From: Escherichia coli
Lineage (GTDB): Bacteria; Pseudomonadota; Gammaproteobacteria; Enterobacterales; Enterobacteriaceae
Assembly (NCBI RefSeq): GCF_030384885.1
Contig: NZ_CP128613.1
DNA: 64,000 nucleotides
Strand: one strand, 5' to 3'
In this document: piece by piece, positions 11,914 to 44,344 of the stretch
Layout: each line of letters begins with the position of its first letter
How positions within the stretch are numbered: position 1 is the stretch's first letter
The notes under the pieces: generated by a model
What the model saw: only the letters and a program-made list of their open reading frames with translations
The model's database searches: none
Told to the model about the DNA's origin: nothing
Program-made: the position numbers and the translations under genes

Positions 11914-12276
11914 ACTTGTAACATGGCCGGTACTTTACCCACCGGCTTGCTACCCTCTTGAAATATCCCACTAGTAATCATGCTTACTTAAGTCAAATTA
12001 ACCACACAATTAAACACACTTAGTTAAATAGCCATAAAACCCCTAATAAAAATGTATGAATATGAAAACCCTACGGTATTCGCTGTTTCCGAAAAATAAT
12101 TACGATGGGCTATACTCTTCTGAAGAACAGTAGCGTAGATTGAAACTGTCCTAAGTCGCTTATTTGTTTTCAGTATATCTTCATATTTCAGGAGAATATG
12201 TGCAGTTAGTCGATCTCGCACGTTGCGTTTCGTTTTTGATTCCGTCTGCTTTCCCAGCCTTATAAGGGTGTGAATT

Positions 12277-13659: not shown

Positions 13660-13683
13660 ATGCGCCAGGATGCAGAGGTAATC

Positions 13684-16083: not shown

Positions 16084-16094
16084 CAAATCCCTCT

Positions 16095-16120
16095 CGCCCG
16101 CACTCGCGGGTTTTCTTTTA
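16095..16120 (+). terminator. Rho-independent terminator after dosP
   Basis: Stem CCCGC-ACTC-GCGGG followed by TTTTCTTTT. Confidence 0.65.
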
Positions 16121-16340
16121 ACGTGACACTGTCACTTAAATACTGTGATTTCAGCTACGATTCCGGGAGATTCCTTCCTTAACTTCCCCTCTTGCACCAA
16201 AACTGCACTACGCTGCACAAATGTTGATCAAAAGTTAAAAAATATAACTTTAAGCCAGCATTCTGGCGCTTATCCCGGCATGGCATGAGATCTGCATAAG
16301 CGGAAAGCGCAGCAATTTTTGTCTTATACAGGAACCGTTT

Positions 16341-16922
16341 ATGTCGGATACCACCGAACTGGTTGATTTAGCCGTGATCTTCCCTGATCTGGAGATCGAA
16401 TTGAAATACGCCTGCGCTGATAACATCACAGGTAAAGCTATTTATCAGCAAGCGCGTTGTCTGTTACACAAGGATGCGATTACCGCGCTGGCGAAAAGTA
16501 TCAGTATCGCCCAGCTGTCAGGCTTACAACTGGTGATTTACGATGCGTATCGCCCACAACAAGCACAGGCGATGTTGTGGCAAACCTGCCCAGACCCGCA
16601 ATATGTTGTTGATGTGACGGTCGGTTCTAATCACAGCCGTGGCACGGCGATCGACCTGACGCTTCGTGATGAGCACGGGAACATCCTCGATATGGGCGCA
16701 GAGTTCGATGAAATGCACGAACGTTCCCATGCTTACCATCCTTCCGTCCCGCCCGCCGCTCAGCGCAATCGCCTGTTGCTGAATGCGATTATGACTGGCG
16801 GTGGCTTTGTCGGTATCCCGAGCGAATGGTGGCACTTCGAATTACCCCAGGCAGCGAGTTACCCACTACTCGCTGATCAATTCACCTGTTTTATATCCCC
16901 TGGCACACAGCACGCCAGTTAA
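16341..16922 (+). CDS. ddpX: D-alanyl-D-alanine dipeptidase (193 aa)
   Basis: VanX-like zinc dipeptidase; matches remembered DdpX; first gene of the ddp operon. Confidence 0.9.
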   Translation: MSDTTELVDLAVIFPDLEIELKYACADNITGKAIYQQARCLLHKDAITALAKSISIAQLSGLQLVIYDAYRPQQAQAMLWQTCPDPQYVVDVTVGSNHSRGTAIDLTLRDEHGNILDMGAEFDEMHERSHAYHPSVPPAAQRNRLLLNAIMTGGGFVGIPSEWWHFELPQAASYPLLADQFTCFISPGTQHAS

Positions 16923-16935
16923 TCAGGAAACTGTC

Positions 16936-18486
16936 ATGAATAGATCGATTTCGTTTCGTCCTACATTGCTCGCGATCGTCCTTGCCACAACAATGCCGGT
17001 TGCGCACGCCGCCGTACCGAAAGATATGCTGGTGATCGGTAAAGCTGCCGACCCACAAACCCTCGACCCGGCGGTAACAATTGATAATAACGACTGGACA
17101 GTGACCTACCCGTCTTATCAGCGACTGGTTCAGTACAAAACGGACGGTGATAAAGGCTCAACAGACGTTGAAGGCGATCTGGCGAGTAGCTGGAAAGCGT
17201 CTGACGATCAAAAAGAGTGGACGTTCACCCTGAAGGACAATGCTAAATTTGCCGATGGCACACCCGTCACTGCCGAAGCAGTAAAACTCTCTTTTGAGCG
17301 GTTACTAAAAATCGGTCAGGGGCCAGCAGAAGCATTTCCCAAAGATTTAAAGATTGATGCTCCCGACGAACATACGGTGAGGTTTACCCTTAGCCAGCCA
17401 TTCGCACCGTTCCTCTACACGCTGGCGAATGACGGTGCATCCATTATCAATCCGGCGGTCTTAAAAGAACATGCGGCCGATGATGCCCGTGGTTTCCTCG
17501 CGCAAAATACCGCTGGCTCCGGACCGTTTATGCTGAAAAGCTGGCAAAAAGGTCAGCAATTAGTTCTGGTGCCAAATCCGCATTACCCCGGCAATAAACC
17601 GAACTTCAAACGGGTATCGGTAAAAATTATCGGTGAAAGTGCCTCCCGTCGCCTGCAGCTCTCCCGTGGCGACATTGACATTGCCGATGCGCTGCCGGTG
17701 GATCAACTCAACGCCCTGAAGCAGGAAAACAAAGTCAACGTGGCAGAGTATCCGTCACTGCGCGTCACCTATCTGTATCTCAATAACAGCAAAGCGCCAC
17801 TTAATCAGGCGGATCTGCGTCGGGCCATTTCCTGGTCTACCGATTATCAGGGTATGGTTAACGGCATTCTGAGCGGTAACGGAAAACAAATGCGCGGCCC
17901 GATTCCGGAAGGCATGTGGGGATACGATGCGACGGCAATGCAATACAACCATGACGAAACGAAAGCCAAAGCCGAATGGGATAAAGTGACGAGCAAACCC
18001 ACTAGCCTGACGTTTCTCTACTCCGATAACGATCCGAACTGGGAACCTATTGCTCTGGCAACACAATCCAGCCTCAACAAGCTGGGCATCAATGTGAAGC
18101 TGGAAAAGCTGGCGAACGCCACCATGCGCGACAGAGTGGGTAAAGGTGATTACGACATCGCGATTGGCAACTGGAGTCCGGATTTTGCCGACCCGTATAT
18201 GTTTATGAATTACTGGTTTGAGTCCGACAAAAAAGGTCTGCCGGGTAACCGCTCGTTCTATGAAAACAGTGAGGTCGATAAGTTACTGCGCAATGCGCTA
18301 GCGACCACCGACCAGACGCAGCGTACCCGGGACTACCAGCAGGCACAGAAAATCGTCATTGATGACGCTGCTTATGTGTATCTGTTCCAGAAAAACTACC
18401 AACTGGCGATGAACAAAGAGGTGAAAGGCTTTGTGTTCAATCCCATGCTGGAACAGGTCTTCAATATCAATACCATGAGTAAATAA
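16936..18486 (+). CDS. ddpA: D-Ala-D-Ala ABC transporter periplasmic binding protein (516 aa)
   Basis: Begins MNRSISFRPTLLAIVLATTMPVAHA (signal peptide); ORF-track start 16801 is over-extended into ddpX. Confidence 0.9.
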   Translation: MNRSISFRPTLLAIVLATTMPVAHAAVPKDMLVIGKAADPQTLDPAVTIDNNDWTVTYPSYQRLVQYKTDGDKGSTDVEGDLASSWKASDDQKEWTFTLKDNAKFADGTPVTAEAVKLSFERLLKIGQGPAEAFPKDLKIDAPDEHTVRFTLSQPFAPFLYTLANDGASIINPAVLKEHAADDARGFLAQNTAGSGPFMLKSWQKGQQLVLVPNPHYPGNKPNFKRVSVKIIGESASRRLQLSRGDIDIADALPVDQLNALKQENKVNVAEYPSLRVTYLYLNNSKAPLNQADLRRAISWSTDYQGMVNGILSGNGKQMRGPIPEGMWGYDATAMQYNHDETKAKAEWDKVTSKPTSLTFLYSDNDPNWEPIALATQSSLNKLGINVKLEKLANATMRDRVGKGDYDIAIGNWSPDFADPYMFMNYWFESDKKGLPGNRSFYENSEVDKLLRNALATTDQTQRTRDYQQAQKIVIDDAAYVYLFQKNYQLAMNKEVKGFVFNPMLEQVFNINTMSK

Positions 18487-18487
18487 C

Positions 18488-19510
18488 GTGACCTTCTGGA
18501 GTATTTTACGCCAACGCTGCTGGGGGCTGGTGCTCGTGGTGGCGGGCGTCTGTGTGATTACGTTTATTATCTCGCACCTGATCCCCGGCGACCCGGCGCG
18601 GTTACTGGCGGGTGACCGCGCCAGCGATGCTATCGTGGATAATATTCGCCAGCAACTGGGACTGGACCAGCCACTGTACGTACAGTTTTACCGCTACGTC
18701 AGCGACCTGTTTCAGGGTGACCTGGGAACATCCATTCGTACCGGGCGTCCGGTGCTGGAAGAGTTGCGCATATTTTTCCCGGCGACGCTGGAACTGGCAT
18801 TTTGCGCCCTGCTGCTGGCACTCCTGGTTGGTATCCCGCTGGGCATACTCTCTGCAGTCTGGCGAAATCGCTGGCTGGATCATCTGGTGCGAATAATGGC
18901 CATTACCGGAATCTCCACACCTGCGTTCTGGCTTGGGCTGGGCGTCATTGTGCTGTTTTATGGTCATCTGCAAATTCTTCCCGGCGGCGGAAGGCTTGAT
19001 GACTGGCTGGATCCACCAACGCACGTTACCGGCTTTTATCTGCTCGATGCGCTGCTTGAAGGCAACGGTGAAGTCTTCTTCAATGCGCTGCAACATCTCA
19101 TCTTACCGGCATTAACGCTGGCGTTCGTTCACCTGGGGATTGTCGCTCGCCAGATCCGCTCAGCTATGCTGGAACAATTGAGTGAAGACTACATTCGTAC
19201 CGCCCGGGCCAGCGGCTTGCCCGGCTGGTATATCGTTTTATGTTATGCGCTACCCAATGCGTTGATCCCCTCGATTACCGTATTGGGGCTGGCGCTGGGC
19301 GATTTGTTGTATGGCGCAGTGCTCACCGAAACCGTTTTTGCCTGGCCCGGAATGGGTGCATGGGTAGTAACATCAATACAGGCGCTCGACTTCCCGGCAG
19401 TGATGGGCTTTGCCGTCGTGGTTTCATTTGCTTATGTGCTGGTCAACCTGGTGGTGGATTTGCTCTATTTGTGGATTGATCCGCGTATCGGACGTGGAGG
19501 TGATGAATGA
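18488..19510 (+). CDS. ddpB: ABC transporter permease (340 aa), GTG start
   Basis: GTG at 18488, two nt after the ddpA stop; membrane protein of the DppB type. Confidence 0.85.
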   Translation: MTFWSILRQRCWGLVLVVAGVCVITFIISHLIPGDPARLLAGDRASDAIVDNIRQQLGLDQPLYVQFYRYVSDLFQGDLGTSIRTGRPVLEELRIFFPATLELAFCALLLALLVGIPLGILSAVWRNRWLDHLVRIMAITGISTPAFWLGLGVIVLFYGHLQILPGGGRLDDWLDPPTHVTGFYLLDALLEGNGEVFFNALQHLILPALTLAFVHLGIVARQIRSAMLEQLSEDYIRTARASGLPGWYIVLCYALPNALIPSITVLGLALGDLLYGAVLTETVFAWPGMGAWVVTSIQALDFPAVMGFAVVVSFAYVLVNLVVDLLYLWIDPRIGRGGDE

Positions 19511-20403
19511 TGCTAAGCGAGGAAACGTCCGTCGTACGCCCACCAAAACAAACGCGATTTAACGGTGCAAAACTGGTATGGATGCTGAAAGGCAGTCCGC
19601 TCACCGTGACCGGCGCAGTCATCATTGTATTAATGCTATTGATGATGATTTTTTCACCGTGGCTGGCGACGCATGATCCCAACGCCATTGATTTAACTGC
19701 CCGCCTTTTGCCGCCTTCTGCGGCGCACTGGTTTGGCACCGATGAAGTGGGACGCGATCTGTTTAGCCGCGTACTGGTCGGCAGTCAGCAATCAATTCTC
19801 GCCGGATTAGTGGTGGTCGCCATTGCGGGTATGATGGGTTCGCTACTCGGGTGTCTATCCGGTGTGCTTGGCGGACGCGCAGACGCGATCATCATGCGCA
19901 TCATGGACATTATGCTGTCGATTCCTTCGCTGGTGCTGACAATGGCGCTGGCTGCCGCACTTGGACCGAGTTTGTTTAACGCCATGCTGGCGATTGCTAT
20001 CGTGCGAATCCCGTTTTATGTGCGCCTGGCGCGGGGGCAAACATTAGTTGTCCGCCAGTACACTTTCGTTCAGGCGGCGAAAACCTTCGGTGCGTCACGC
20101 TGGCATCTGATCAACTGGCATATTTTACGTAACTCCCTGCCGCCGCTGATTGTGCAGGCATCGCTGGATATTGGTAGCGCGATTTTAATGGCCGCCACGT
20201 TGGGATTTATTGGCCTGGGTGCTCAACAACCGAGTGCTGAATGGGGGGCGATGGTGGCGAATGGTCGCAACTATGTGCTCGATCAATGGTGGTATTGCGC
20301 ATTTCCGGGGGCAGCGATTTTGCTTACCGCCGTCGGGTTCAATCTCTTTGGTGATGGTATTCGCGATCTGCTTGACCCGAAAGCAGGAGGAAAGCAGTCA
20401 TGA
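19507..20403 (+). CDS. ddpC: ABC transporter permease (298 aa)
   Basis: ATGA overlap with the ddpB stop; DppC-type permease. Confidence 0.88.
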   Translation: MMLSEETSVVRPPKQTRFNGAKLVWMLKGSPLTVTGAVIIVLMLLMMIFSPWLATHDPNAIDLTARLLPPSAAHWFGTDEVGRDLFSRVLVGSQQSILAGLVVVAIAGMMGSLLGCLSGVLGGRADAIIMRIMDIMLSIPSLVLTMALAAALGPSLFNAMLAIAIVRIPFYVRLARGQTLVVRQYTFVQAAKTFGASRWHLINWHILRNSLPPLIVQASLDIGSAILMAATLGFIGLGAQQPSAEWGAMVANGRNYVLDQWWYCAFPGAAILLTAVGFNLFGDGIRDLLDPKAGGKQS

Positions 20404-21386
20404 CCCAACCCGTTCTGGACATTCAACAACTGCATTTGAGTTTCTCCGGTTTTAACGGCGACGTTCACGCGCTCAACAATGTGTCATTGAAAATCAACCG
20501 CGGTGAAATTGTCGGTCTGGTGGGAGAATCCGGCTCGGGTAAATCAGTCACTGCAATGTTGATTATGCGTCTGTTACCGACGGGCAGTTATTGCGTACAT
20601 CGGGGACATATTTCACTGCTGGGAGAAGATGCTCTTAACGCTCGGGAAAAACAGCTTCGTCAGTGGCGCGGCGCACGAGTGGCGATGATCTTTCAGGAAC
20701 CGATGACCGCCCTAAATCCGACACGTCGAATAGGTCTTCAGATGATGGACGTGATCCGCCATCATCAACCAATAAGTCGTCGGGAAGCCAGAGCTAAAGC
20801 GATTGCCCTGCTGGAAGAGATGCAAATCCCGGATGCCGTGGAAGTTATGTCGCGCTATCCGTTTGAGCTTTCAGGTGGTATGCGCCAGCGGGTAATGATT
20901 GCGCTGGCATTCTCCTGCGAGCCGCAATTGATTATTGCCGACGAACCGACTACGGCGCTGGACGTCACGGTACAGTTGCAGGTACTGCGTCTGCTTAAAC
21001 ATAAAGCCCGCGCCAGTGGAACTGCGGTACTGTTCATCAGCCATGATATGGCCGTGGTGTCGCAACTGTGCGATAGCGTTTACGTGATGTATGCCGGAAG
21101 CGTGATCGAGAGCGGTATGACGGCAGACGTTATCCATCATCCCCGGCATCCGTATACCATTGGTTTGCTGCAATGCGCACCGGAACATGGAATACCACGC
21201 CAGCCATTACCCGCCATTCCAGGGACGGTACCAAACCTCACCCATTTGCCTGACGGCTGCGCTTTTCGCGATCGTTGCTATGCGGCAGGTACACAGTGTG
21301 AAAACGTCCCGGCGCTGACAGCGTGTGGTGACAACAACCACCGCTGCGCCTGTTGGTATCCTCAGCAGGAGGTCATTAGTGTCTGA
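20400..21386 (+). CDS. ddpD: ABC transporter ATP-binding protein (328 aa)
   Basis: Walker A GESGSGKS, signature LSGGMRQR, Walker B; ATGA overlap with ddpC. Confidence 0.9.
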   Translation: MTQPVLDIQQLHLSFSGFNGDVHALNNVSLKINRGEIVGLVGESGSGKSVTAMLIMRLLPTGSYCVHRGHISLLGEDALNAREKQLRQWRGARVAMIFQEPMTALNPTRRIGLQMMDVIRHHQPISRREARAKAIALLEEMQIPDAVEVMSRYPFELSGGMRQRVMIALAFSCEPQLIIADEPTTALDVTVQLQVLRLLKHKARASGTAVLFISHDMAVVSQLCDSVYVMYAGSVIESGMTADVIHHPRHPYTIGLLQCAPEHGIPRQPLPAIPGTVPNLTHLPDGCAFRDRCYAAGTQCENVPALTACGDNNHRCACWYPQQEVISV

Positions 21387-22305
21387 CACGTTATTAACGT
21401 TACGCGACGTCCATATCAATTTCCCGGCCCGAAAAAACTGGCTTGGTAAAACTACGGAACATGTTCATGCCATCAATGGTATTGATTTACAGATCCGTCG
21501 TGGTGAAACCTTAGGGATCGTCGGTGAGTCAGGCTGCGGCAAAAGCACCCTCGCGCAGCTTTTAATGGGTATGCTGCAACCGAGCCACGGGCAGTACATC
21601 CGTTCAGGATCACAACGCATTATGCAGATGGTGTTTCAGGACCCGCTCTCTTCGCTTAATCCGCGCTTACCGGTGTGGCGCATCATCACGGAACCGCTCT
21701 GGATTGCTAAGCGTAGTAGTGAACAACAGCGGCGAGCGTTGGCAGAGGAGCTGGCTGTGCAGGTGGGTATTCGTCCGGAGTATCTCGACCGCTTGCCTCA
21801 TGCGTTCTCAGGCGGGCAGCGGCAACGTATCGCCATTGCCAGAGCACTCTCTTCGCAGCCTGACGTGATTGTGCTTGATGAGCCCACCTCGGCGCTGGAT
21901 ATCTCCGTGCAGGCGCAGATCCTCAATTTACTGGTAACGCTACAGGAAAATCGCGGGCTGACTTATGTGCTGATTTCACACAATGTCTCGGTGATACGTC
22001 ATATGAGCGATCGGGTGGCGGTGATGTATCTCGGACAGATTGTTGAACTAGGAGACGCGCAACAGGTGCTGACAGCTCCGGCACATCCATACACCAGATT
22101 ATTGCTGGATTCCCTCCCCGCCATTGATAAACCGCTGGAGGAAGAATGGGCATTGCGTAAAACGGAACTACCAGGAAACCGCACGTTGCCGCCGGGCTGT
22201 TTTTTCCGTGAACGTTGCCCTCTGGCAACCCACGGATGTGAAGTCCGGCAATCATTAACAATAAGGGAGGACGGACGTGAGATCCGGTGCTGGCGGGCGC
22301 TGTAG
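21379..22305 (+). CDS. ddpF: ABC transporter ATP-binding protein (308 aa), GTG start
   Basis: Walker A GESGCGKST, signature FSGGQRQR; begins VSDTLLTLRD at GTG 21379, overlapping the ddpD end; ORF-track start 21325 is over-extended. Confidence 0.85.
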   Translation: MSDTLLTLRDVHINFPARKNWLGKTTEHVHAINGIDLQIRRGETLGIVGESGCGKSTLAQLLMGMLQPSHGQYIRSGSQRIMQMVFQDPLSSLNPRLPVWRIITEPLWIAKRSSEQQRRALAEELAVQVGIRPEYLDRLPHAFSGGQRQRIAIARALSSQPDVIVLDEPTSALDISVQAQILNLLVTLQENRGLTYVLISHNVSVIRHMSDRVAVMYLGQIVELGDAQQVLTAPAHPYTRLLLDSLPAIDKPLEEEWALRKTELPGNRTLPPGCFFRERCPLATHGCEVRQSLTIREDGREIRCWRAL

Positions 22306-22342
22306 AGACGCGGCATCCGGCTATTGCATGTCTGTGGAAACG

Positions 22343-23233
22343 TTATGCGTCATAGGTTTTTTTTAACGTTTCCATCAACGCTTGCGCCGCAGTAGAAAGC
22401 TTATGGTGTGACGAACGCAGAACGCCTACCCGTCGCTCAATCACCGGATTATCCAGTTCCAGACACACTGCGCCCAATTCGCTCATCTGCCTGCGGCACA
22501 GTGCAGGCACAGCGCTGCCCCCCAAACCGTTTGCCACCAGCCGCCCAACCGTAACCAGTTGATGGCTTTCCAGCGCCACTTCCAGTTGCGTTCCACTTTG
22601 TGCCAATTCCTCTTCCAGCATCAACCTGACGGCTGACGGTCGCTGGAGGGTGATAAAATCGAGCGTCAGCAAATCCCGCCAGCTCACGCGTTGCCGATTT
22701 GCCAGTCGGGAATCGGCTGGAACAATAGCAACAAACCGATCCACGCCCAGCGGGATAAAATGCAAATGGCCGCAATAGTCAGGTTCAAAGGCAATCCCCA
22801 TCTCCACGCGCCCTTCACTCACCATTTCGATTACCAGCTCATTCACCACATCGTGCACAGTGACGTTAATCCCTGAATAACAATCGCGGAAGGTTTTCAG
22901 CACCGGAGGCAAAACGTTGGCCGCAAATGACGGCATCGCTGCCACTGAGACTTTGCCCCGCCTGAGCGTGAATCGCTGACGCATGGCCTCTTCGGTGTTA
23001 TCCCAGTCAGCCAGCAAAGGCCGTGCCATCGACAATAGCGTTTCCCCCTCCTGGGTTAACGTCACTTTTCGCGTAGTACGCAGCAGTAAAGCGCCCCCTA
23101 AGGCATCTTCCAGTCCTTTAATGGCAAGACTTAGCGCAGGCTGCGACATATTCAGCCGTTCACTGGCATGGGCAAAGTTCAGAGTGTGAGCTACCGCTAA
23201 AAACGCGCGTAACTGTTTGATGCTCATTTTCAT
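22343..23233 (-). CDS. LysR-family transcriptional regulator (296 aa)
   Basis: N-terminal helix-turn-helix of LysR type (MKMSIKQLRAFLAVAHTLNFAHASERL...) plus a substrate-binding domain; transcribed divergently from the CoA-transferase operon. Confidence 0.85.
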   Translation of the reverse strand: MKMSIKQLRAFLAVAHTLNFAHASERLNMSQPALSLAIKGLEDALGGALLLRTTRKVTLTQEGETLLSMARPLLADWDNTEEAMRQRFTLRRGKVSVAAMPSFAANVLPPVLKTFRDCYSGINVTVHDVVNELVIEMVSEGRVEMGIAFEPDYCGHLHFIPLGVDRFVAIVPADSRLANRQRVSWRDLLTLDFITLQRPSAVRLMLEEELAQSGTQLEVALESHQLVTVGRLVANGLGGSAVPALCRRQMSELGAVCLELDNPVIERRVGVLRSSHHKLSTAAQALMETLKKTYDA

Positions 23234-23374
23234 CTGGTATTCCGTTAACTTGTTGAATACATTTAATTAACATTATATTTATAAATAATACAAATGAATG
23301 AGTCACAAATTTAAAATTAACAAATCATTTTTTGCCCTTAATGATGTTGGAAAGGACAACTGGAGGGCAACTGT

Positions 23375-24082
23375 ATGGCTGGGCTGGATAAACGGGTCGC
23401 TACGTATCACGAGGCGCTTGAAGGACTTACCAATGAGATGACGATTCTGGCGGGAGGTTTTGGCCTGTGCGGCATCCCGGAGAATCTGATTGCTGAAGTT
23501 CGCCACCGTGGAGTAACCGCATTGACGGTGGTTTCCAATAACTGTGGCGTAGACGGTTTTGGACTGGGTGTACTGCTGGAAACCCGACAGATCCGTAAAG
23601 TCATCGCTTCTTATGTTGGCGAAAATGCTTTGTTTGAAAAACAGGTGCTTAACGGCGAACTGGAGGCGATTCTCACACCACAAGGAACCCTGGCAGAACA
23701 ACTGCGCGCAGGCGGCGCGGGCATCCCGGCGTTCTTTACTGCCACCGGTTACGGTACACCCGTTGCCGAAGGGAAAGAAGTCCGCGAATTCAACGGTCGC
23801 CCGTACATAATGGAACAGGCTATCACCGGTGATTTTGCCCTGGTCAAAGGCTGGAAAGCCGACTGGTACGGCAACGTGATTTATCGTCATACCGCGCAAA
23901 ACTTCAACCCACTGATGGCGGCTGCCGGAAAAATCACCGTGGTGGAAGTGGAAGAGATTGTGCCGCCTGGTGAACTTGATCCTGCCGCAATCCATACCCC
24001 AGGGATTTTTGTTAATCGCGTCATTCAGGGGCAATTTGAAAAACGCATTGAACAACGCACCCTTAGCCGCAAAGGAGCCTGA
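23375..24082 (+). CDS. 3-oxoacid/acetoacetate CoA-transferase subunit A (235 aa)
   Basis: Family resemblance to AtoD/ScoA ([27 protein letters not shown]); GGAGGG ribosome-binding site. Confidence 0.85.
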
Positions 24083-24084
24083 CC

Positions 24085-24741
24085 ATGTTAACCCGTGAAC
24101 AAATGGCGATGCGAGTCGCCCGCGAATTGCGCGATGGCTATTACGTCAATCTCGGCATTGGTATCCCGACCCTGGTGGCAAACTACATTCCTGACGGGAT
24201 GGATGTGATGTTGCAGTCAGAAAACGGTTTGCTGGGAATGGGCGCATTTCCTACGGAAGATGAACTGGACGCCGACATGATTAACGCCGGTAAACAAACC
24301 GTTACCGCACGGAAAGGCGCGGCAATTTTCGATTCGGCGCAATCTTTCGCCATGATCCGTGGCGGCCATGTGGATCTGACTGTGCTTGGCGCATTTGAAG
24401 TGGATGTGAATGGCAACATTGCCTCATGGATGATCCCCGGCAAGATGGTTAAAGGCATGGGCGGTGCCATGGATCTGGTTGCCGGTGCCGAGAATATTAT
24501 TGTGGTAATGACCCACGCCTCCAAATCCGGCGAATCCAAACTGCTTCCCGACTGTACCCTGCCATTGACTGGCGTCGGCTGCATCAAACGCGTCTTAACC
24601 GACCTTGCTCTGCTGGAAATTGCTGACGGCGCTTTCATTCTGCGCGAGCGCGCGCCGGGAATCAGCGTTGCGGAAATCGTCGCCAAAACCGCCGGTAAGT
24701 TGTTTGTGCCGGAACATGTCCCGGAAATGCAATTCAACTGA
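24085..24741 (+). CDS. 3-oxoacid/acetoacetate CoA-transferase subunit B (218 aa)
   Basis: AtoA/ScoB-like; starts 3 nt after the subunit A stop. Confidence 0.85.
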   Translation: MLTREQMAMRVARELRDGYYVNLGIGIPTLVANYIPDGMDVMLQSENGLLGMGAFPTEDELDADMINAGKQTVTARKGAAIFDSAQSFAMIRGGHVDLTVLGAFEVDVNGNIASWMIPGKMVKGMGGAMDLVAGAENIIVVMTHASKSGESKLLPDCTLPLTGVGCIKRVLTDLALLEIADGAFILRERAPGISVAEIVAKTAGKLFVPEHVPEMQFN

Positions 24742-24750
24742 GGAATCACC

Positions 24751-25956
24751 ATGCAGGACGTTGTTATTGTTGCCGCTACGCGCACGCCGATTGGCTGTTT
24801 TCATGGCGCTCTCGCACCACTTTCTGCGGTTGATCTCGGCGCTGCCACCATCCGTTCATTGCTGGAGAAAACCGCACTTGCAGCAGAACAGATCGATGAA
24901 GTGATTTTTGGTCAGGTCCTGACTGCCGGAAGCGGACAAAACCCAGCACGGCAATCGGCGCTCAAAGCCGGGTTAAGCCACGATACACCCGCCGTTACCA
25001 TCAACCTGGTATGTGGTTCCGGTTTGAAAGCCGTACACCAGGCCGTGCAGGCGATCCGCTGTGGTGATGCACAGATCATTATCGCAGGTGGCCAGGAAAG
25101 CATGAGCAACGCGCCCTATTTTATTGATGGCGCGCGGGCAGGTTTACGCCTCGGGCATACCAGCATGAAAGACAGCGTGGTTCATGACGGACTATGGGAT
25201 GCTTTCAATGATTACCACATGGGCATTACTGCAGAAAACCTGGCGCAAAAATATGCCATCAGTCGCGAGCGCCAGGACACATTCGCGCTACGTTCTCAGC
25301 AAAAAGCCGCTGCCGCAATGGAAGCCTGGCGCTTTGCAGACGAAATTACTCCGGTCAGCGTACCACAAGGTAAAAAACCACCACGCTGGGTAAATACCGA
25401 CGAACAACCACGTTCCGGGACGCAACTGGAAAAACTGGCGCAACTGAAACCGGCCTTTCTTCCGGGGGCAGGAAGCGTCACCGCGGGAAATGCCTCTTCC
25501 ATCAATGATGGTGCCGCCGCAGTCATGTTAATGCGCGCCAGCAAAGCTGCCGAACTTGGCCTCTCTGTGCTGGCTCGGGTGGCCGGTTATGCCGTTTCTG
25601 GCGTCGATCCTGCCTTTATGGGCATCGGTCCGGTCGTCGCTACCCGCGAATGTCTTAAGCGTTGCGGATGGACGCTGGAAGATATTGATCTTATTGAAGC
25701 AAACGAAGCTTTCGCAGCGCAGGCGCTGGCCGTTGGCGACGAACTGAACTGGGATAACGACAAAGTGAATGTTAACGGCGGCGCAATCGCACTTGGGCAT
25801 CCTATTGGCGCTTCTGGTTGCCGCATTCTGGTCACTCTCATTTATGAAATGGCGCGACGTAATGCGCAAAAAGGGCTGGCGACGCTGTGCGTCGGTGGCG
25901 GTCAGGGCGTGGCGCTGACGCTGGAAAGAACCACAGGAGAACACCATGCAAACTGA
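24751..25956 (+). CDS. Acetyl-CoA acetyltransferase (thiolase II, 401 aa)
   Basis: Thiolase signatures, including [17 protein letters not shown] and a C-terminal GGGQG. Confidence 0.88.
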
Positions 25957-26869
25957 ACAATTTGCGGTACTGGGCGCCGGATTGATGGGCGTGGGGATTG
26001 CCACTCATTTCGCCCGCTTTGGTCATGATATCTGGCTGTACGATACCGAGCAGAGCCGGATTGCTGAAATCCCCGTAGTTGCAGCCGGGATTCTTGATGA
26101 ACTGATTAGCTGCGAACAGTTTACTGCCTCGGGAAAAGAGAATGTGCTTAAACGCCTTCACGGCACGACCTCTCTTGCTGACATCGCCGACTCGCAACTA
26201 CTGATTGAGGCGATCCCGGAGCGGCTTGAACTAAAACACGCATTATATGCCGAGCTTGAAACACTTATTTCTCCTGAGGCCATTGTCGCCAGCAATACCA
26301 GCGGTCTGCCGCCCGATGATCTGGCAGCGAAGATGCGCTACCCGCAACGACTGCTGATCGCCCATTTCTGGCATCCGCCGCACTTCATTCCACTTGTAGA
26401 GATTGTCCCCGGCAGCGTTACCGAGCCAAAGCATTTGCACTGGCTGCAACACTTGCTTGTGTCACTGCAACTGGAAGCTGTGTTGCTGGATCGCGCTGCG
26501 CCAGGATTTGTCGGCAACCGTCTGCAATTTGCACTGTTGCGTGAAGCCCTGCATATCGTAAAAAGCGGCATCGCCAGTGCCGAAGTAGTCGATCAGGTCA
26601 TGCGCGCCTCGCTTGGGCGACGTTATGCCATGGTCGGCCCGCTGGAGGCCGCCGACATGACCGGACTTTCGACGGTGCAGGATATTTGTCGCCATCTTCT
26701 CCCTGAACTGGCGACTGGCAGCGACATGATGTCGTTAGTTGCCGAAAAAGTGGAACGTGGAGACATCGGCGTACGTAGCGGTCAGGGATTTTACCGCTGG
26801 GATGAATCGCGGAAGCAGTACATCCAGCAGCGTCGGGAACATCAGCTTCGCTTCGCCCTGAAACCCTAA
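25946..26869 (+). CDS. 3-hydroxyacyl-CoA (3-hydroxybutyryl-CoA) dehydrogenase (307 aa)
   Basis: N-terminal NAD-binding Rossmann motif [12 protein letters not shown]; overlaps the thiolase gene by 11 nt; AGGAGA ribosome-binding site. Confidence 0.8.
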
Positions 26870-26914
26870 CTTCTCTCGCTGTACCCACTATAACAACGAT
26901 ATTGAGGAGTCCCG

Positions 26915-28306
26915 ATGAGTGTATTAATCGCCCTTGCCGCGCTTGGGCTGCTAATGCTGGCAGCCTATCGCGGATACAGCGTTATCCTTTTTGCCCCCAT
27001 CGCGGCATTAGGCGCTGTTCTTGTCACCGATCCGGGGGCTGTTGGCCCAGCATTTACCGGTCTGTTCATGGAAAAAATGGTCGGCTTCGTGAAATTGTAC
27101 TTCCCGGTGTTTCTGCTCGGGGCCGTGTTCGGAAAACTGATTGAGCTTTCAGGATTTTCTCGTTCGATTGTCGCTGCTGCAATCAACATTCTCGGGCGGC
27201 GGCATGCGATTCCGGTGATTGTGCTGGTATGCGCATTACTCACCTATGGCGGCGTGTCGCTGTTTGTGGTGGCATTTGCCGTTTATCCGTTCGCGGCTGA
27301 ATTGTTCCGACAGAGTAATATCCCCAAACGGCTTATACCGGCAACGGTGGCCCTCGGAGCATTCTCTTTTACTATGGACGCTCTGCCCGGCACACCTCAA
27401 ATCCAGAACATTATTCCCACCAGTTTCTTTGGCACCAACGCCTGGGCCGCGCCGTGGCTGGGGCTCATTGGTTCACTGTTTATCATTGCCGTCGGGCTTA
27501 TCTATCTGGAGCGACAGCGTCGTAAAGCGCATGCAAAAAATGAAGGTTACGGCACAGAGTTACTTAATGAACCTGAAACGCCAGACAACATCAATTTGCC
27601 GAATCCACTCATTGCGATTTCACCGTTGATTCTGGTGGGGCTGTTGAACTTGTTGTTTACCTGGTGGATCCCTGTTTGGTACGGTGCGAGTCACCAACTG
27701 GAGTTGCCAGGACTTGCCGCCCCGATCACTACAGATGTCGCCAAAATCACCGCTATCTGGGCCGTTGAAGCAGCGCTCATTGCCGGAATTTTGCTGGTGG
27801 TGATTTTCGGATATCGCAATATTCATGGAAGACTGGCAGAAGGAAGCCGTACTGCGGTGGGTGGCGCAATTCTGGCCGCGATGAACACCGCCTCAGAATA
27901 TGGCTTCGGTGCGGTTATCGCCGCTCTGCCCGGTTTTCTGGTGCTCTCAAAGGCGCTGGCTGCCATTCCAGATCCATTACTCAACGAAGCCATCAGCATC
28001 ACCACGCTTGCCGGCATTACCGGTTCAGCGTCCGGCGGGATGAGTATTGCTCTTGCGGCTATGTCCGACACTTTTATTGCCGCTGCGCACGCTGCCAATA
28101 TTCCACTGGAAGTTTTTCACCGCGTGGCATCTATGGCCAGTGGCGGCATGGATACATTGCCCCATAACGGCGCAGTGATCACTCTGCTGGCAATTACTGG
28201 GCTGAGTCACCGTCAGGCTTACGGCGGTATCTTCGCAATTACGATCATTAAAAGTCTGGCCGTGCTGTTTATCATCGGCGTGTACTACACCACCGGCATT
28301 GTCTAA
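26915..28306 (+). CDS. Polytopic permease, GntP-like (463 aa)
   Basis: About 12 predicted transmembrane segments; overall resemblance to the GntP/hydroxy-acid:H+ symporter family; substrate unknown. Confidence 0.6.
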   Translation: MSVLIALAALGLLMLAAYRGYSVILFAPIAALGAVLVTDPGAVGPAFTGLFMEKMVGFVKLYFPVFLLGAVFGKLIELSGFSRSIVAAAINILGRRHAIPVIVLVCALLTYGGVSLFVVAFAVYPFAAELFRQSNIPKRLIPATVALGAFSFTMDALPGTPQIQNIIPTSFFGTNAWAAPWLGLIGSLFIIAVGLIYLERQRRKAHAKNEGYGTELLNEPETPDNINLPNPLIAISPLILVGLLNLLFTWWIPVWYGASHQLELPGLAAPITTDVAKITAIWAVEAALIAGILLVVIFGYRNIHGRLAEGSRTAVGGAILAAMNTASEYGFGAVIAALPGFLVLSKALAAIPDPLLNEAISITTLAGITGSASGGMSIALAAMSDTFIAAAHAANIPLEVFHRVASMASGGMDTLPHNGAVITLLAITGLSHRQAYGGIFAITIIKSLAVLFIIGVYYTTGIV

Positions 28307-28317
28307 GGAGAATCATC

Positions 28318-28695
28318 ATGAATTTACAAGGTAAAACTGCGCTTGTGACGGGGTCCTCCAGCGGTATTGGACTCGGTATTGCTCAGACACTGGCAAAAGC
28401 CGGCGCGCAAGTGATCCTCAACGGCTTCGGTGATGTTGACGCGGCAATCAATGGAGTTTCTCGTGTGGGTAAAACGCCTGGCTATCATGAGGCAGACCTC
28501 AGCGATGAATCGCAAATTGTCAGCATGATGGCCTACGCACGGAGGGAATTTGGCGGTGTGGACATTCTGGTGAATAACGCCGGGATCCAATTGGAGCTGA
28601 CCAAATGGGTGGAAGCTTCTGATAACGACATCCTCAGTGATATCTACCAGCAAACGATCAATTATGTGGTCAGTGGCCAGCACCCTACGCTTTAA
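28318..28695 (+). pseudogene. Chimeric ORF: N-terminal 92 codons of a short-chain dehydrogenase fused in frame to the last 33 codons of bdm
   Basis: N-terminus has the SDR cofactor motif TGSSSGIGLG and NNAG; from about 28594 the protein reads ELTKWVEASDNDILSDIYQQTINYVVSGQHPTL, identical to the remembered Bdm C-terminus; total length 125 aa against about 250 aa for an SDR. Confidence 0.7.
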
Positions 28696-28796
28696 GGTGC
28701 TATGCTTGATCGGCAACCTAATTTAGGGGTTTAGCACGTGTTTCTTCGCTACGGCGATGTTGTCCTTAAAACTAGCAACAGGATTGAGGAGTTAAA

Positions 28797-28934
28797 ATGA
28801 AATCGAACCGTCAGGCACGTCATATTCTTGGACTGGACCATAAAATTTCTAACCAGCGCAAAATAGTTACCGAAGGTGACAAATCCAGCGTGGTAAATAA
28901 CCCAACCGGCAGAAAACGCCCCGCTGAAAAGTAA
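28797..28934 (+). CDS. sra: Stationary-phase ribosome-associated protein Sra (45 aa)
   Basis: [45 protein letters not shown]; below the 60-aa cutoff of the ORF track. Confidence 0.85.
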
Positions 28935-29090
28935 TCTTTAACAATCAGTCCTCAATGACGATTAAACACCATTGCCTGCGCAATGGTGTTTTTGTTTTTA
29001 ACTGCTTTATACTTGGAGCCGACGCCCTGGCGGTAAAGCAAAGACGATAAAAGCACCCCAGGGATGGATATTCAAAAAAGAGTGAGTGAC

Positions 29091-30788
29091 ATGGAACCAA
29101 AAACAAAAAAACAGCGTTCGCTTTATATTCCTTACGCTGGCCCTGTACTGCTGGAATTTCCGTTGTTGAATAAAGGCAGCGCCTTCAGCATGGAAGAACG
29201 CCGTAACTTCAACCTGCTGGGGTTACTGCCGGAAGTGGTCGAAACCATCGAAGAACAAGCGGAACGCGCATGGATCCAGTATCAGGGATTCAAAACCGAA
29301 ATCGACAAACACATCTACCTGCGTAACATCCAGGACACCAACGAAACCCTCTTCTACCGTCTGGTAAACAATCATCTTGATGAGATGATGCCTGTTATTT
29401 ATACCCCAACCGTCGGCGCAGCCTGTGAGCGTTTTTCTGAGATCTACCGCCGTTCACGCGGCGTGTTTATCTCTTACCAGAACCGCCACAATATGGACGA
29501 TATTCTGCAAAACGTGCCGAACCATAATATTAAAGTGATTGTGGTGACTGACGGCGAACGTATTCTGGGGCTTGGTGACCAGGGCATCGGTGGGATGGGT
29601 ATTCCGATCGGTAAACTGTCGCTCTATACCGCCTGCGGCGGCATCAGCCCGGCGTATACACTGCCGGTGGTGCTGGATGTCGGGACGAACAACCAGCAGT
29701 TGCTTAACGACCCGCTGTATATGGGCTGGCGTAATCCACGTATCACTGACGACGAATACTATGAATTCGTGGATGAATTTATCCAGGCTGTGAAGCAACG
29801 CTGGCCGGACGTGTTATTGCAGTTTGAAGATTTTGCACAGAAAAACGCGATGCCGTTGCTTAACCGCTATCGCAATGAAATTTGTTCTTTTAACGATGAT
29901 ATTCAGGGCACCGCGGCGGTAACAGTCGGCACACTGATCGCAGCCAGCCGTGCGGCGGGCGGTCAGTTAAGCGAGAAAAAAATCGTCTTCCTCGGCGCAG
30001 GTTCAGCAGGATGCGGCATTGCGGAGATGATCATCGCCCAGACTCAGCGTGAAGGATTAAGCGAAGAAGCGGCGCGGCAGAAAGTCTTTATGGTCGATCG
30101 CTTTGGTCTGCTGACCGACAAGATGCCGAACCTGCTGCCTTTCCAGACCAAACTGGTGCAGAAGCGCGAAAATCTCAGTGACTGGGATACTGACAGCGAT
30201 GTGCTGTCATTGCTTGATGTGGTGCGCAATGTCAAACCGGATATTCTGATTGGCGTCTCAGGACAGACCGGGCTGTTTACGGAAGAGATCATCCGTGAGA
30301 TGCACAAACACTGTCCGCGTCCGATCGTGATGCCGCTGTCTAACCCGACTTCACGTGTGGAAGCCACACCGCAGGACATTATCGCCTGGACCGAAGGTAA
30401 CGCGCTGGTCGCCACTGGCAGCCCGTTTAATCCAGTGGTATGGAAAGATAAAATCTACCCTATCGCCCAGTGTAATAACGCCTTTATTTTCCCGGGCATC
30501 GGGCTGGGTGTTATTGCTTCCGGCGCGTCACGTATCACCGATGAGATGCTGATGTCGGCAAGCGAAACGCTTGCTCAGTATTCGCCGCTGGTACTGAACG
30601 GCGAAGGTCTGGTACTGCCGGAACTGAAAGATATTCAGAAAGTGTCCCGCGCAATTGCGTTTGCGGTTGGCAAAATGGCGCAGCAGCAAGGCGTGGCGGT
30701 GAAAACGTCTGCCGAAGCTCTGCAACAGGCCATTGATGATAACTTCTGGCAAGCCGAATACCGCGACTACCGCCGTACATCCATCTAA
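29091..30788 (+). CDS. maeA: NAD-dependent malic enzyme (565 aa)
   Basis: Begins [19 protein letters not shown]; an alternative in-frame ATG lies 9 codons upstream at 29064 (ORF-track start). Confidence 0.9.
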
Positions 30789-30922
30789 GCCTGCGCCCGG
30801 TAGTGACTGCTACCGGGCAATTTTCCTCTTCCTTTTTCAGATCTCATCCATACTGGGTAGTGGCGAATAAATCTCATTTGCCTCACCTGCTATGCAGAAC
30901 ATCATCCGAAAAGGAGGAAACT

Positions 30923-31933
30923 ATGAAGGCTGCAGTTGTTACGAAGGATCATCATGTTGACGTTACGGATAAAACACTGCGCTCACTGAAACATGGCGAA
31001 GCCCTGCTGAAAATGGAGTGTTGTGGCGTATGTCATACCGATCTTCATGTTAAGAATGGCGATTTTGGTGATAAAACCGGCGTGATTCTGGGCCATGAAG
31101 GCATCGGTGTGGTGGCAGAAGTTGGCCCCGGCGTTACCTCATTAAAACCAGGCGATCGCGCCAGCGTGGCGTGGTTTTACGAAGGATGCGGTCATTGCGA
31201 ATACTGTAACAGCGGTAACGAAACGCTCTGCCGTTCAGTAAAAAATGCCGGATACAGCGTTGATGGCGGCATGGCGGAAGAGTGCATCGTGGTCGCCGAT
31301 TACGCGGTTAAAGTGCCGGATGGCCTGGACTCGGCGGCGGCCAGCAGCATCACCTGTGCGGGCGTCACCACCTACAAAGCAGTAAAACTGTCAAAAATTC
31401 GTCCAGGACAGTGGATTGCTATCTACGGTCTTGGCGGTCTGGGTAATCTCGCCCTGCAATACGCGAAGAATGTCTTTAACGCCAAAGTGATCGCCATTGA
31501 TGTCAATGATGAGCAGTTGAAACTGGCAACCGAAATGGGTGCAGATTTAGCGATTAACTCACGCACCGAAGACGCCGCCAAAATTGTGCAGGAAAAAACC
31601 GGTGGCGCTCACGCAGCGGTGGTGACCGCGGTAGCTAAAGCTGCGTTTAACTCAGCGGTCGATGCCGTTCGTGCAGGCGGTCGTGTTGTGGCTGTCGGTC
31701 TGCCGCCGGAGTCTATGAGCCTGGACATCCCACGGCTGGTGCTGGATGGTATTGAAGTGGTCGGTTCGCTAGTCGGCACGCGCCAGGATCTAACCGAAGC
31801 CTTCCAGTTTGCCGCCGAAGGCAAAGTGGTGCCGAAAGTCGCCCTGCGTCCGTTAGCGGACATCAACACCATCTTTACTGAGATGGAAGAAGGCAAAATC
31901 CGTGGCCGTATGGTGATTGATTTCCGCCGCTAA
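30923..31933 (+). CDS. adhP: Zinc-dependent alcohol dehydrogenase (336 aa)
   Basis: Begins [11 protein letters not shown]; zinc ligands GHEGIG and CxxCxxC; AGGAAA spacing to the ATG; ORF-track start 30803 is over-extended. Confidence 0.9.
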
Positions 31934-31941
31934 GAAGCCTT

Positions 31942-31977
31942 TGCTGCGACTGCCATGTTCGGGTCGCAGCCTGTTTT
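31942..31977 (+). terminator. Rho-independent terminator after adhP
   Basis: GCTGCGAC ... GTCGCAGC stem followed by CTGTTTT. Confidence 0.55.
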
Positions 31978-32118
31978 GCGAGACGCTTTCCGCAATTTCA
32001 CTCTTCTTCTTTTCCTCCCCCATCTTTCCCCTCACAATTCGCGAAAACGTAGCGAAATTTGTTGCGCTGCACGGAACAATAGTGATAGTGTTCCTTTCGA
32101 GGGAACAAGGATGAAGAG

Positions 32119-32397
32119 ATGATAATGAATTTCAGACACAAGGGATTGCGTGACTTGTTTCTTCTCGGCAAAACCTCCGGCGTTATACCGACGCAAATCA
32201 AACGATTACGCCACCGACTCGCTGTGATTGATGCAGCAAGCTGTCTTGCTGATATCGATATGCCCGGCTACCGACTACACCCGTTAAGCGGCGATCGTGA
32301 TGGAATTTGGGCGATATCTGTCTCGGGCAACTGGCGAATCACATTTGAATTCGTCAATGGCGATGCATACATACTGGATTACGAGGACTATCACTGA
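32119..32397 (+). CDS. HigB/RelE-family toxin (about 90 aa)
   Basis: Small basic protein; [13 protein letters not shown]-terminus is typical of HigB-like killer proteins; the true start may be ATG 32125; its stop overlaps the antitoxin start (ATGA). Confidence 0.65.
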
Positions 32398-44249: not shown

Positions 44250-44344
44250 GAGATTGATGCCTGACGCGTCTTATCAGTCTTACAACCGTGTCGCATCCGA
44301 TAAGGCATCAGATCCCAAATCATTCCTGGAGCAGGAGTTATGTT

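What the first reader, a model, noticed from the sequence alone, without database searches (positions are those of the whole stretch)
28318..28695. In-frame chimera of a truncated short-chain dehydrogenase and the bdm 3' end marks a deletion junction
The ORF changes near 28594 from an SDR N-terminus (TGSSSGIGLG ... NNAG) to the exact C-terminal 33 residues of Bdm. The SDR lacks its catalytic half, so 3-hydroxybutyrate oxidation is probably lost. The sra upstream region is rearranged, which may alter sra and bdm expression. The junction suggests a deletion that removed the SDR 3' end, osmC and the bdm 5' end in one event.
Basis: partly seen in the sequence, partly recalled or inferred. Interest (0 to 1): 0.55.

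Follow-up and report, generated by a model that had tools for sequence, protein, structure and literature searches.

The report
Private 1.4-kb deletion fusing two genes
This E. coli strain has lost 1,418 bases that relatives keep, removing the osmC stress gene and joining the front of a 3-hydroxybutyrate dehydrogenase gene in frame to the tail of bdm; it is an ordinary strain-specific gene-loss scar, not a new kind of gene.

Summary

**The ORF.** ORF 28318..28695 (+, 125 aa) has three parts:
- residues 1-91 of a 256-aa 3-hydroxybutyrate dehydrogenase (an SDR);
- one new Leu codon (TTG);
- residues 39-71 of Bdm.

**The deletion.** The closest complete genome is E. coli 2013C-4282. It is collinear with the window and has no SNP for about 7 kb to the left and 1.8 kb to the right of the junction. 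It carries 1,418 extra bases between window 28591 and 28592. Those bases hold the SDR 3' end with the catalytic Asn-Ser-Tyr-Lys, a strong hairpin, all of osmC, the osmC/bdm promoter region and bdm codons 1-37. The junction is blunt, with 0 nt of microhomology and no IS sequence.

**How common it is.**
- The junction was found in 0 of 5,426 complete E. coli genomes and in neither large contig collection.
- The chimeric protein is absent from 15 billion proteins.
- The osmC-bdm segment is present in 99.5% of complete genomes.

**Likely consequences (inferred).** BDH, OsmC and Bdm are lost. The Rcs/osmotic bdm promoter that co-transcribes sra is gone, so sra now sits at the 3' end of the upstream catabolic operon.

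**Verdict.** A private allele of a familiar kind, of low general interest.

The parts
28318..28591 (+). 5' remnant of the 3-hydroxybutyrate dehydrogenase (classical SDR) gene: codons 1-91 plus the first base of codon 92. It keeps the AAGGAG ribosome-binding site upstream, TGSSSGIG and NNAG.
   Evidence: 100% identical to L001 21019-21292; Pfam adh_short model positions 1-100 of 195 only.
28591..28592 (.). Deletion junction, CCAAT|TGGAG. It is blunt, with 0 nt of microhomology and no inserted or IS-derived bases. It creates a new in-frame TTG (Leu92) codon.
   Evidence: The left match cannot be extended by one base. The right match ends exactly at 28592. 1,418 bp (L001 21293-22710) are missing.
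28592..28695 (+). 3' remnant of bdm: the last two bases of codon 38, codons 39-71 and the stop codon.
   Evidence: Identical to L001 22711-22814; Pfam BDM model positions 30-71 of 71.
28318..28695 (+). Chimeric 125-aa ORF (SDR 1-91, Leu, Bdm 39-71). Best regarded as a fusion pseudogene.
   Evidence: The exact protein is absent from a 15-billion-protein collection.
28797..28934 (+). sra (stationary-phase ribosome-associated protein), intact. Its proximal upstream 204 bp are unchanged, but the distal bdm promoter is deleted.
   Evidence: protein identical to the relative. Co-transcription of sra from the bdm promoter is stated in PMC2634741.
28964..28991 (+). First terminator-like hairpin downstream of the chimeric ORF (after sra). 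It is the probable new 3' end of the upstream operon's transcript.
   Evidence: No other + strand terminator-like site was found between 28000 and 28964.
23375..28306 (+). Upstream genes of the accessory 3-hydroxybutyrate/acetoacetate operon: CoA transferase A (23375-24082), CoA transferase B (24085-24741), thiolase (24751-25956), 3-hydroxyacyl-CoA dehydrogenase (25946-26869) and GntP-family permease (26915-28306). All are intact. The SDR was the last gene.
22343..23233 (-). Divergent LysR-family regulator of the island.

Best explanation
A single, recent, lineage-private 1,418-bp chromosomal deletion joined codon 92 of a 3-hydroxybutyrate dehydrogenase gene to codon 38 of bdm. It arose by illegitimate recombination with a blunt junction. 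The SDR was the last gene of an accessory operon (LysR regulator, CoA transferase, thiolase, HADH, GntP permease, BDH) that lies between ddpF and osmC.

Shown: the deletion removes the SDR's catalytic half (Asn111, Ser139, Tyr152, Lys156), a stable hairpin between the convergent SDR and osmC genes, the whole osmC gene, the 343-bp divergent osmC/bdm promoter region, and the first 37 codons of bdm. The join happens to be in frame, a 1-in-3 chance. It leaves a 125-aa chimeric ORF behind an intact ribosome-binding site.

Inferred:
- The strain cannot oxidise D-3-hydroxybutyrate through this pathway.
- It lacks the OsmC organic-hydroperoxide peroxiredoxin and Bdm.
- sra has lost the Rcs/osmotic-shock-driven transcription that comes from the bdm promoter.
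- sra is instead exposed to read-through from the upstream catabolic operon, because no terminator-like element remains between that operon and sra.
- The chimeric product, half a Rossmann fold plus a Bdm tail, is most likely a non-functional and probably unstable polypeptide.
For: - The intact gene order in the closest complete genome is ... GntP, BDH, osmC(-), bdm, sra, maeA.
- Window 7296-28591 equals L001 1-21292, and window 28592-47179 equals L001 22711-41292. There is no SNP between window 21556 and 30355.
- Exact breakpoints and 0 nt of microhomology.
- Parental protein sequences. Domain halves.
- Full-length BDH aligns end to end with the solved 3-hydroxybutyrate dehydrogenases 5yss, 2q2q and 1wmb. 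On that basis the S139/Y152/K156 region lies downstream of residue 91.
- The junction is absent from all 5,426 complete E. coli genomes, from genome contigs and metagenome contigs and from 15 billion proteins.
- All 26 contigs read that carry the identical permease have the intact SDR-osmC-bdm-sra arrangement.
- The osmC-bdm 5' segment is present at >=80% coverage in 5,399 of 5,426 genomes.
- The deleted hairpin has dG -20.8 kcal/mol, z = -3.9.
- No + strand terminator-like site lies between the operon and sra in the window.
- sra is co-transcribed from the osmotically induced bdm promoter (PMC2634741).
Against: - Only one assembled sequence is available. No reads were seen, so an assembly or sequencing chimera cannot be formally excluded.
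- A blunt junction without microhomology is less typical of spontaneous bacterial deletions than a 3-10 nt microhomology.
- All functional consequences (loss of growth on 3-hydroxybutyrate, peroxide sensitivity, altered sra transcription, instability of the chimera) are inferred, not measured.
- The position of any sra-proximal promoter could not be checked, because the primary papers were not held.
Confidence: 0.9

Rival explanations
1. Two-step, IS-associated origin. An ancestor carried an IS10 (or another IS) inside the SDR gene. A later deletion removed the IS together with flanking DNA on both sides, leaving a clean junction.
For: - The closest relative found on the left flank is Logan SRR1922553, with 5 SNPs in 10,274 nt. 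Its SDR gene is cut after L001 21377 by an IS10 end, CTGAGAGATCCCCTCATAATTTCCCCA. I identified that IS end from memory.
- That insertion site lies only 85 nt to the right of the window's left breakpoint, inside the segment deleted in the window.
- Other strains carry an IS1 end in the same gene (L012).
- Other losses at this locus in complete genomes are IS1-adjacent.
Against: - No IS-derived base remains at the junction, and no IS10 end occurs anywhere in the 64-kb window.
- Transposase-promoted adjacent deletions normally keep the IS and start exactly at its end.
- The IS10 allele and the deletion may be independent hits in sister lineages.
- The other flank of the IS10 in SRR1922553 could not be recovered.
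Confidence: 0.12
2. Assembly or sequencing artefact: a chimeric join of two true loci that are really 1.4 kb apart in the strain.
For: - The junction is unique. It was found in no other public sequence.
- A comparable SDR-maeA join in a 601-nt metagenome contig of 1.3x coverage (L002) shows that such joins can appear in low-quality data.
Against: - No repeat lies at the breakpoints that could collapse an assembly. There is 0 nt of microhomology, and the only shared 8-mer, GACATTCT, is out of register with the junction.
- Both flanks are collinear and error-free for kilobases.
Confidence: 0.05
3. Natural, ancestral gene: an SDR family whose genuine C-terminus resembles Bdm.
For: None found.
Against: - The same SDR is 256 aa in relatives, and that exact sequence is on 583 contigs.
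- It aligns over its full length with solved BDH structures.
- Among the 120 best hits of a 5.8-billion-protein search, none carries PF10684 or, in the eight read in full, a Bdm-like tail.
- The DNA on each side of 28591|28592 is 100% identical to two separate genes that lie 1.4 kb apart in the sister genome.
Confidence: 0.01
4. Functional neo-gene or regulatory rewiring under selection. The in-frame fusion would be expressed from the LysR-controlled operon and retain some Bdm-tail or NAD-binding activity. Alternatively, the deletion was selected because it places sra under ketone-body-responsive control or removes osmC/bdm.
For: - The join is in frame, with an intact ribosome-binding site and operon context.
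- No terminator-like site lies before sra.
Against: - An in-frame join has a 1-in-3 prior.
- The allele is private to one sequence, so there is no sign of spread or conservation.
- The SDR part lacks the catalytic tetrad and the oligomer interfaces.
- The Bdm part lacks 38 of 71 residues.
- The SDR gene is also inactivated in other ways in other strains, which fits decay rather than innovation.
Confidence: 0.03

Closest known systems
D-3-hydroxybutyrate dehydrogenase (classical SDR, EC 1.1.1.30; solved structures 5yss, 2q2q, 1wmb)
   Same: Residues 1-91 are the authentic N-terminus of the E. coli accessory BDH. They cover the Rossmann strands up to and including NNAG, with TGSSSGIG. The parental 256-aa protein is 87% identical to 5yss over 256 residues.
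   Different: Everything after residue 91 is gone. That includes the catalytic Asn-Ser-Tyr-Lys, the substrate-binding residues and the oligomerisation helices. It cannot be an active BDH.
Bdm (biofilm-dependent modulation protein, Pfam PF10684)
   Same: The last 33 residues and the stop codon are those of Bdm. The downstream spacer and sra are unchanged.
   Different: It lacks Bdm residues 1-38, the bdm start codon and the Rcs-dependent bdm promoter.
Spontaneous deletion-generated fusion pseudogenes in enterobacterial genomes (illegitimate recombination)
   Same: One contiguous segment is missing relative to collinear sister genomes, leaving two truncated genes joined.
   Different: The junction has no microhomology at all, and the join is in frame by chance.
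IS1-adjacent deletions at the same locus (E. coli EC17CM6 and NR341)
   Same: They also remove osmC or bdm-sra from this neighbourhood.
   Different: Those retain an IS1 at the junction. The window's junction contains no IS sequence.

Membership tests
Classical SDR / 3-hydroxybutyrate dehydrogenase | N-terminal TGxxxGxG dinucleotide-binding motif | tested here: met
   TGSSSGIG at residues 11-18.
Classical SDR / 3-hydroxybutyrate dehydrogenase | NNAG motif after strand beta4 | tested here: met
   NNAG at residues 86-89, directly before the junction.
Classical SDR / 3-hydroxybutyrate dehydrogenase | Catalytic tetrad Asn-Ser-Tyr-Lys (YxxxK) | tested here: not met
   In the parental protein these are N111, S139 and Y152-x3-K156 (alignment to 5yss). 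All lie in the deleted part. Pfam adh_short matches only model positions 1-100 of 195.
Classical SDR / 3-hydroxybutyrate dehydrogenase | Full-length domain of about 250 residues | tested here: not met
   Only 91 SDR residues remain, against 256 in relatives.
Bdm (PF10684) | Full 71-residue BDM domain with its own start codon and promoter | tested here: not met
   Only model positions 30-71 match. Codons 1-37 and the upstream 343-bp promoter region are deleted.
Deletion-derived fusion pseudogene | Both flanks collinear with an intact locus in close relatives, with the intervening segment absent | tested here: met
Deletion-derived fusion pseudogene | The junction is supported by reads from the strain, so it is not an assembly artefact | not testable with these tools
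   No read data are available. Indirectly, no repeat lies at the breakpoints.
IS-mediated adjacent deletion | An IS end sits exactly at the deletion junction | tested here: not met
   The junction CCAAT|TGGAG consists only of SDR and bdm bases. No IS10 ends occur in the window.

The most novel reading that the evidence does not exclude
The in-frame fusion is not just a scar. As the new last gene of the LysR-controlled ketone-body operon, it would be translated into a half-Rossmann/Bdm-tail protein with residual activity. Together with the loss of the intervening hairpin and of the bdm promoter, it would place sra under 3-hydroxybutyrate/acetoacetate-responsive transcription. That would be a one-step regulatory rewiring of a ribosome-associated stationary-phase protein.
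Probability: 0.04. Interest if true: 0.35.

Novelty: new member of a known kind. Interest (0 to 1): 0.12.

Why it matters
For this strain, the deletion predicts three gene losses. BDH loss should block D-3-hydroxybutyrate use through the accessory operon. OsmC loss removes organic-hydroperoxide detoxification. Bdm is also lost. The strain should also have lost Rcs/osmotic control of sra.

osmC-bdm is near-core, present in 99.5% of complete E. coli genomes, so its loss is a useful strain marker and a natural knockout.

Beyond that, it illustrates routine gene decay. The same BDH gene is independently hit by IS10, IS1 and frameshifts in other strains. It does not open a new biological question.

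Tried and rejected
- **Junction in public data.** I searched for a 26-mer across 28591|28592 in genome contigs and metagenome contigs and found 0 hits. An exact look-up of the chimeric protein found nothing. No complete E. coli genome carries the junction.
- **Natural full-length SDR with a Bdm-like tail.** Searched for and not found.
- **Primary papers on the bdm and sra promoters** (Francez-Charlot 2005; Izutsu 2001). Neither is held. I used only a secondary statement. A reporter-assay preprint added nothing. No paper was found on this island or deletion.
- **Other flank of the IS10 in SRR1922553.** I tried to recover it by guessing five possible partial products. None is in the collection. 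The sixth guess, starting at M126, instead led to frameshift and IS1 alleles in other strains.
- **Lost RNA genes.** An Rfam scan of the deleted segment gave no match at E <= 0.1.
- **Engineered deletion.** Considered because the junction creates CAATTG (MfeI) next to the native GGATCC. Rejected: GGATCC is parental SDR sequence, neither parent has AATT at its breakpoint, there is no FRT, lox or vector scar, and the design (SDR codon 92 to bdm codon 38 across an opposite-strand gene) makes no experimental sense.
- **Slippage between the 8-mer GACATTCT** present near both breakpoints (L001 21262-21269 and 22701-22708). Rejected because it would give a different junction. The shared ATG at both breakpoints would likewise give CCAATATGGAG, which is one base longer and out of frame.
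- **Structure prediction of the chimera.** Not run, because it would not measure stability.

Full report
**1. The observation**

The window contains an ATG-initiated ORF at 28318..28695 on the + strand. It encodes 125 residues and is preceded by a good Shine-Dalgarno sequence (AAGGAG).

Its first 91 residues (MNLQGKTALVTGSSSGIG ... DILVNNAGIQ) are those of a classical short-chain dehydrogenase. Its last 33 residues (ELTKWVEASDNDILSDIYQQTINYVVSGQHPTL) are those of Bdm.

Pfam confirms two partial domains:
- adh_short, model positions 1-100 of 195;
- BDM PF10684, model positions 30-71 of 71.

**2. What the intact locus looks like**

A megablast of 27300-29100 against 5,426 complete E. coli genomes split the query cleanly. 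Bases up to window 28591 hit 'GntP family permease | 3-hydroxybutyrate dehydrogenase'. Bases from 28592 onward hit 'bdm | sra | maeA'. No genome covered both parts in one place.

The best genome is E. coli 2013C-4282 (NZ_CP027579.1, locus L001). Its gene order is ddpXABCDF, a LysR regulator (minus strand), CoA transferase A and B, thiolase, 3-hydroxyacyl-CoA dehydrogenase, GntP permease, 3-hydroxybutyrate dehydrogenase (771 bp), osmC (minus strand), bdm, sra, maeA, adhP.

**3. The breakpoints**

- Window 7296-28591 aligns to L001 1-21292 at 99.58% identity.
- Window 28592-47179 aligns to L001 22711-41292 at 99.88% identity.
- All differences from L001 lie outside window 21556-30355. The junction therefore sits in about 8.8 kb that is otherwise identical to the relative.

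The missing segment is L001 21293-22710, which is 1,418 bp:

| Part | Length (bp) |
|---|---|
| SDR 3' end | 497 |
| Spacer containing a perfect 22-nt palindrome | 34 |
| osmC | 432 |
| Divergent osmC/bdm intergenic region | 343 |
| First part of bdm | 112 |

- The left parent reads GGGATCCAAT|ATGTCTCC.
- The right parent reads ATTCTCA|TGGAGCTG.
- The window reads GGGATCCAAT|TGGAGCTG.

Neither match can be extended by a single base, so there is zero microhomology and no filler or IS sequence.

The first base of SDR codon 92 (TAT) plus the last two bases of bdm codon 38 (ATG) make a new TTG Leu codon. The fusion is therefore in frame, which has a 1-in-3 prior.

**4. What the parents are**

The parental SDR is 256 aa. 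It aligns end to end with solved 3-hydroxybutyrate dehydrogenases: 5yss at E 1e-145, also 2q2q, 2yz7 and 1wmb. From the sequence, the SDR catalytic residues are N111, S139, Y152 and K156. All lie beyond residue 91 and are deleted.

Parental Bdm is 71 aa. The chimera keeps residues 39-71.

**5. Is it an ancestral gene?**

No.
- The exact full-length 256-aa SDR is on 583 contigs.
- The identical upstream permease occurs in 982 index blocks. All 26 contigs read carry the intact SDR-OsmC-BDM-SRA arrangement.
- A search of 5.8 billion proteins with the chimera returned only SDR hits among the 120 best. These covered about 73% of the query (the SDR part), or a little more through chance extension. 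None carries PF10684, and none of the eight read in full has a Bdm tail.

**6. How widespread is the allele?**

It was found nowhere else.
- 0 of 5,426 complete genomes.
- 0 hits for a 26-nt junction probe in one-genome-per-species contigs and in 241 million metagenome records.
- The exact protein is absent from 15 billion sequences.

By contrast, the osmC-bdm 5' segment is present at >=80% coverage in 5,399 of 5,426 complete genomes. The accessory SDR island is present in 229 of 5,426.

The two exceptional complete genomes I inspected lost parts of this neighbourhood through IS1-adjacent deletions, with the IS1 still at the junction (EC17CM6 and NR341). The window's deletion differs from these in being IS-free.

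**7. How it probably arose**

The evidence fits one illegitimate-recombination event.

There is one lead for a two-step route. The closest relative found on the left flank is Logan assembly SRR1922553, with 5 SNPs in 10,274 nt. Its SDR gene is interrupted after L001 21377 by a sequence I recognise from memory as an IS10 end, CTGAGAGATCCCCTCATAATTTCCCCA. That site is 85 nt inside the segment deleted in the window.

An ancestor with that IS10, followed by a deletion spanning the IS and both flanks, would give the observed product. However, nothing in the window requires this. There is no IS base at the junction and no IS10 end in 64 kb. I could not recover the other IS flank. I give this sub-hypothesis about 0.12.

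**8. Consequences**

Shown:
- The BDH catalytic half, osmC, the osmC/bdm promoter region and the bdm 5' end are lost.
- A stable hairpin between the convergent SDR and osmC genes is lost (dG -20.8 kcal/mol, z -3.9).
- sra and the 204 bp upstream of it are unchanged.

Inferred, using knowledge of the families:
- The operon's predicted route runs from 3-hydroxybutyrate through BDH to acetoacetate, then through CoA transferase to acetoacetyl-CoA, then through thiolase to acetyl-CoA. It is blocked at the first step.
- OsmC peroxiredoxin activity and Bdm are absent.
- sra is reported to be co-transcribed with bdm from an osmotically induced promoter upstream of bdm (PMC2634741, citing Francez-Charlot 2005). 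That input is gone.
- No terminator-like element lies on the + strand between the permease gene and the hairpin after sra at 28964-28991. sra is therefore now the 3' end of the catabolic operon's transcription unit.
- The chimeric product lacks strands beta5 to beta7 of the sheet and the SDR oligomer interfaces. I expect it to be unstable.

**9. Comparison with what is known, and novelty**

This is a deletion-generated fusion pseudogene, a familiar kind of event. As a gene it fails the membership tests for an active SDR (no catalytic tetrad, 91 of 256 residues) and for Bdm (33 of 71 residues, no own start codon).

The particular allele is undescribed in the data searched. It is a new member of a known kind.

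The BDH gene is independently damaged in other E. coli assemblies by IS10, IS1, a 10-bp deletion and several single-base deletions. That fits relaxed selection on this accessory gene rather than innovation.

**10. Verdict**

- Observation: confirmed.
- Interpretation: supported, with minor corrections. The junction is at 28591|28592. There is a new Leu codon and no microhomology. The proximal sra upstream region is intact, and bdm is destroyed rather than merely re-regulated.
- Interest: low (0.12).

The main residual uncertainty is whether the junction is supported by reads. I cannot test that here.

Noticed in passing
L003 10359-10386 (Logan SRR1922553_114), corresponding to L001 21377/21378: The closest relative on the left flank has 5 SNPs in 10,274 nt. 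Its SDR gene is interrupted by what I recognise from memory as an IS10 end, CTGAGAGATCCCCTCATAATTTCCCCA, and the contig stops there. The site lies 85 nt inside the segment deleted in the window.
   Followed up: partly
L012 1-27 (Logan SRR31599553_383), joining L001 21348: The contig begins with what I recognise from memory as an IS1 terminal repeat (CTAAATCAGTAAGTTGGCAGCATCACC), followed by the SDR gene from codon ~110. This is an independent IS1 hit in the same gene in a different lineage (about 96.8% identity).
   Followed up: partly
L005-L011 (SDR gene, L001 21283-21388): Several assemblies split the SDR into two ORFs. The causes are 1-nt deletions at L001 21283, 21288, 21318, 21323 and 21388, or a 10-nt deletion at 21344-21353. 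Some are probably real pseudogenes (L005 has 4 similar places). Others may be read errors (L006 has many split genes). The sampling is biased towards codons 89-125 by the way they were found.
   Followed up: partly
L002 373-379 (ENA ERZ1024453 NODE_32512, 601 nt, coverage 1.3): A tiny metagenome contig joins the SDR at L001 21333 to the maeA start at L001 23210 through a 7-nt microhomology, ATGGAAC. That would delete the SDR 3' end, osmC, bdm and sra. At this coverage it may be a chimeric read rather than a real allele.
   Followed up: partly
L013 4288-4985 (E. coli EC17CM6) and L014 4288-4985 (E. coli NR341): Two complete genomes lost parts of the same neighbourhood by IS1-adjacent deletions. 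EC17CM6 lost dosC' through osmC. NR341 lost bdm-sra. In both, the IS1 is retained at the junction.
   Followed up: yes
window 22343-28306: An accessory island lies between ddpF and osmC. It holds a LysR regulator, CoA transferase A and B, thiolase, 3-hydroxyacyl-CoA dehydrogenase, GntP permease and BDH. It is present in only 229 of 5,426 complete E. coli genomes. It is a predicted 3-hydroxybutyrate/acetoacetate utilisation operon that K-12-type genomes lack, and I found no paper on it.
   Followed up: partly
window 12200-21555, 30356-30509, 33700-33969: Differences from strain 2013C-4282 are strongly clustered. There are about 90 in dosC-dosP-ddp, 12 within 154 nt of maeA that change no residue, and 5 in fdnH. 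Long stretches between them are identical. This looks like recombination tracts rather than clock-like divergence.
   Followed up: no
window 41077-41082 and 12200-12225: A 6-nt in-frame insertion (ATCCTC), relative to 2013C-4282, lies in the hypothetical protein gene next to the leucine-rich-repeat gene. Small indels (1 nt and 5 nt) lie in the digH-dosC intergenic region.
   Followed up: no
window 28583-28596: The junction creates CAATTG (an MfeI site) directly after the native GGATCC (BamHI) of the SDR gene. I judge this a coincidence. Neither parent has AATT at its breakpoint, and there is no scar or vector sequence.
   Followed up: yes
L001 21262-21269 and 22701-22708 (left copy at window 28561-28568): The 8-mer GACATTCT occurs 23 nt before the left breakpoint and 2 nt before the right breakpoint. 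It is out of register with the actual junction, so it was not the recombination substrate.
   Followed up: yes
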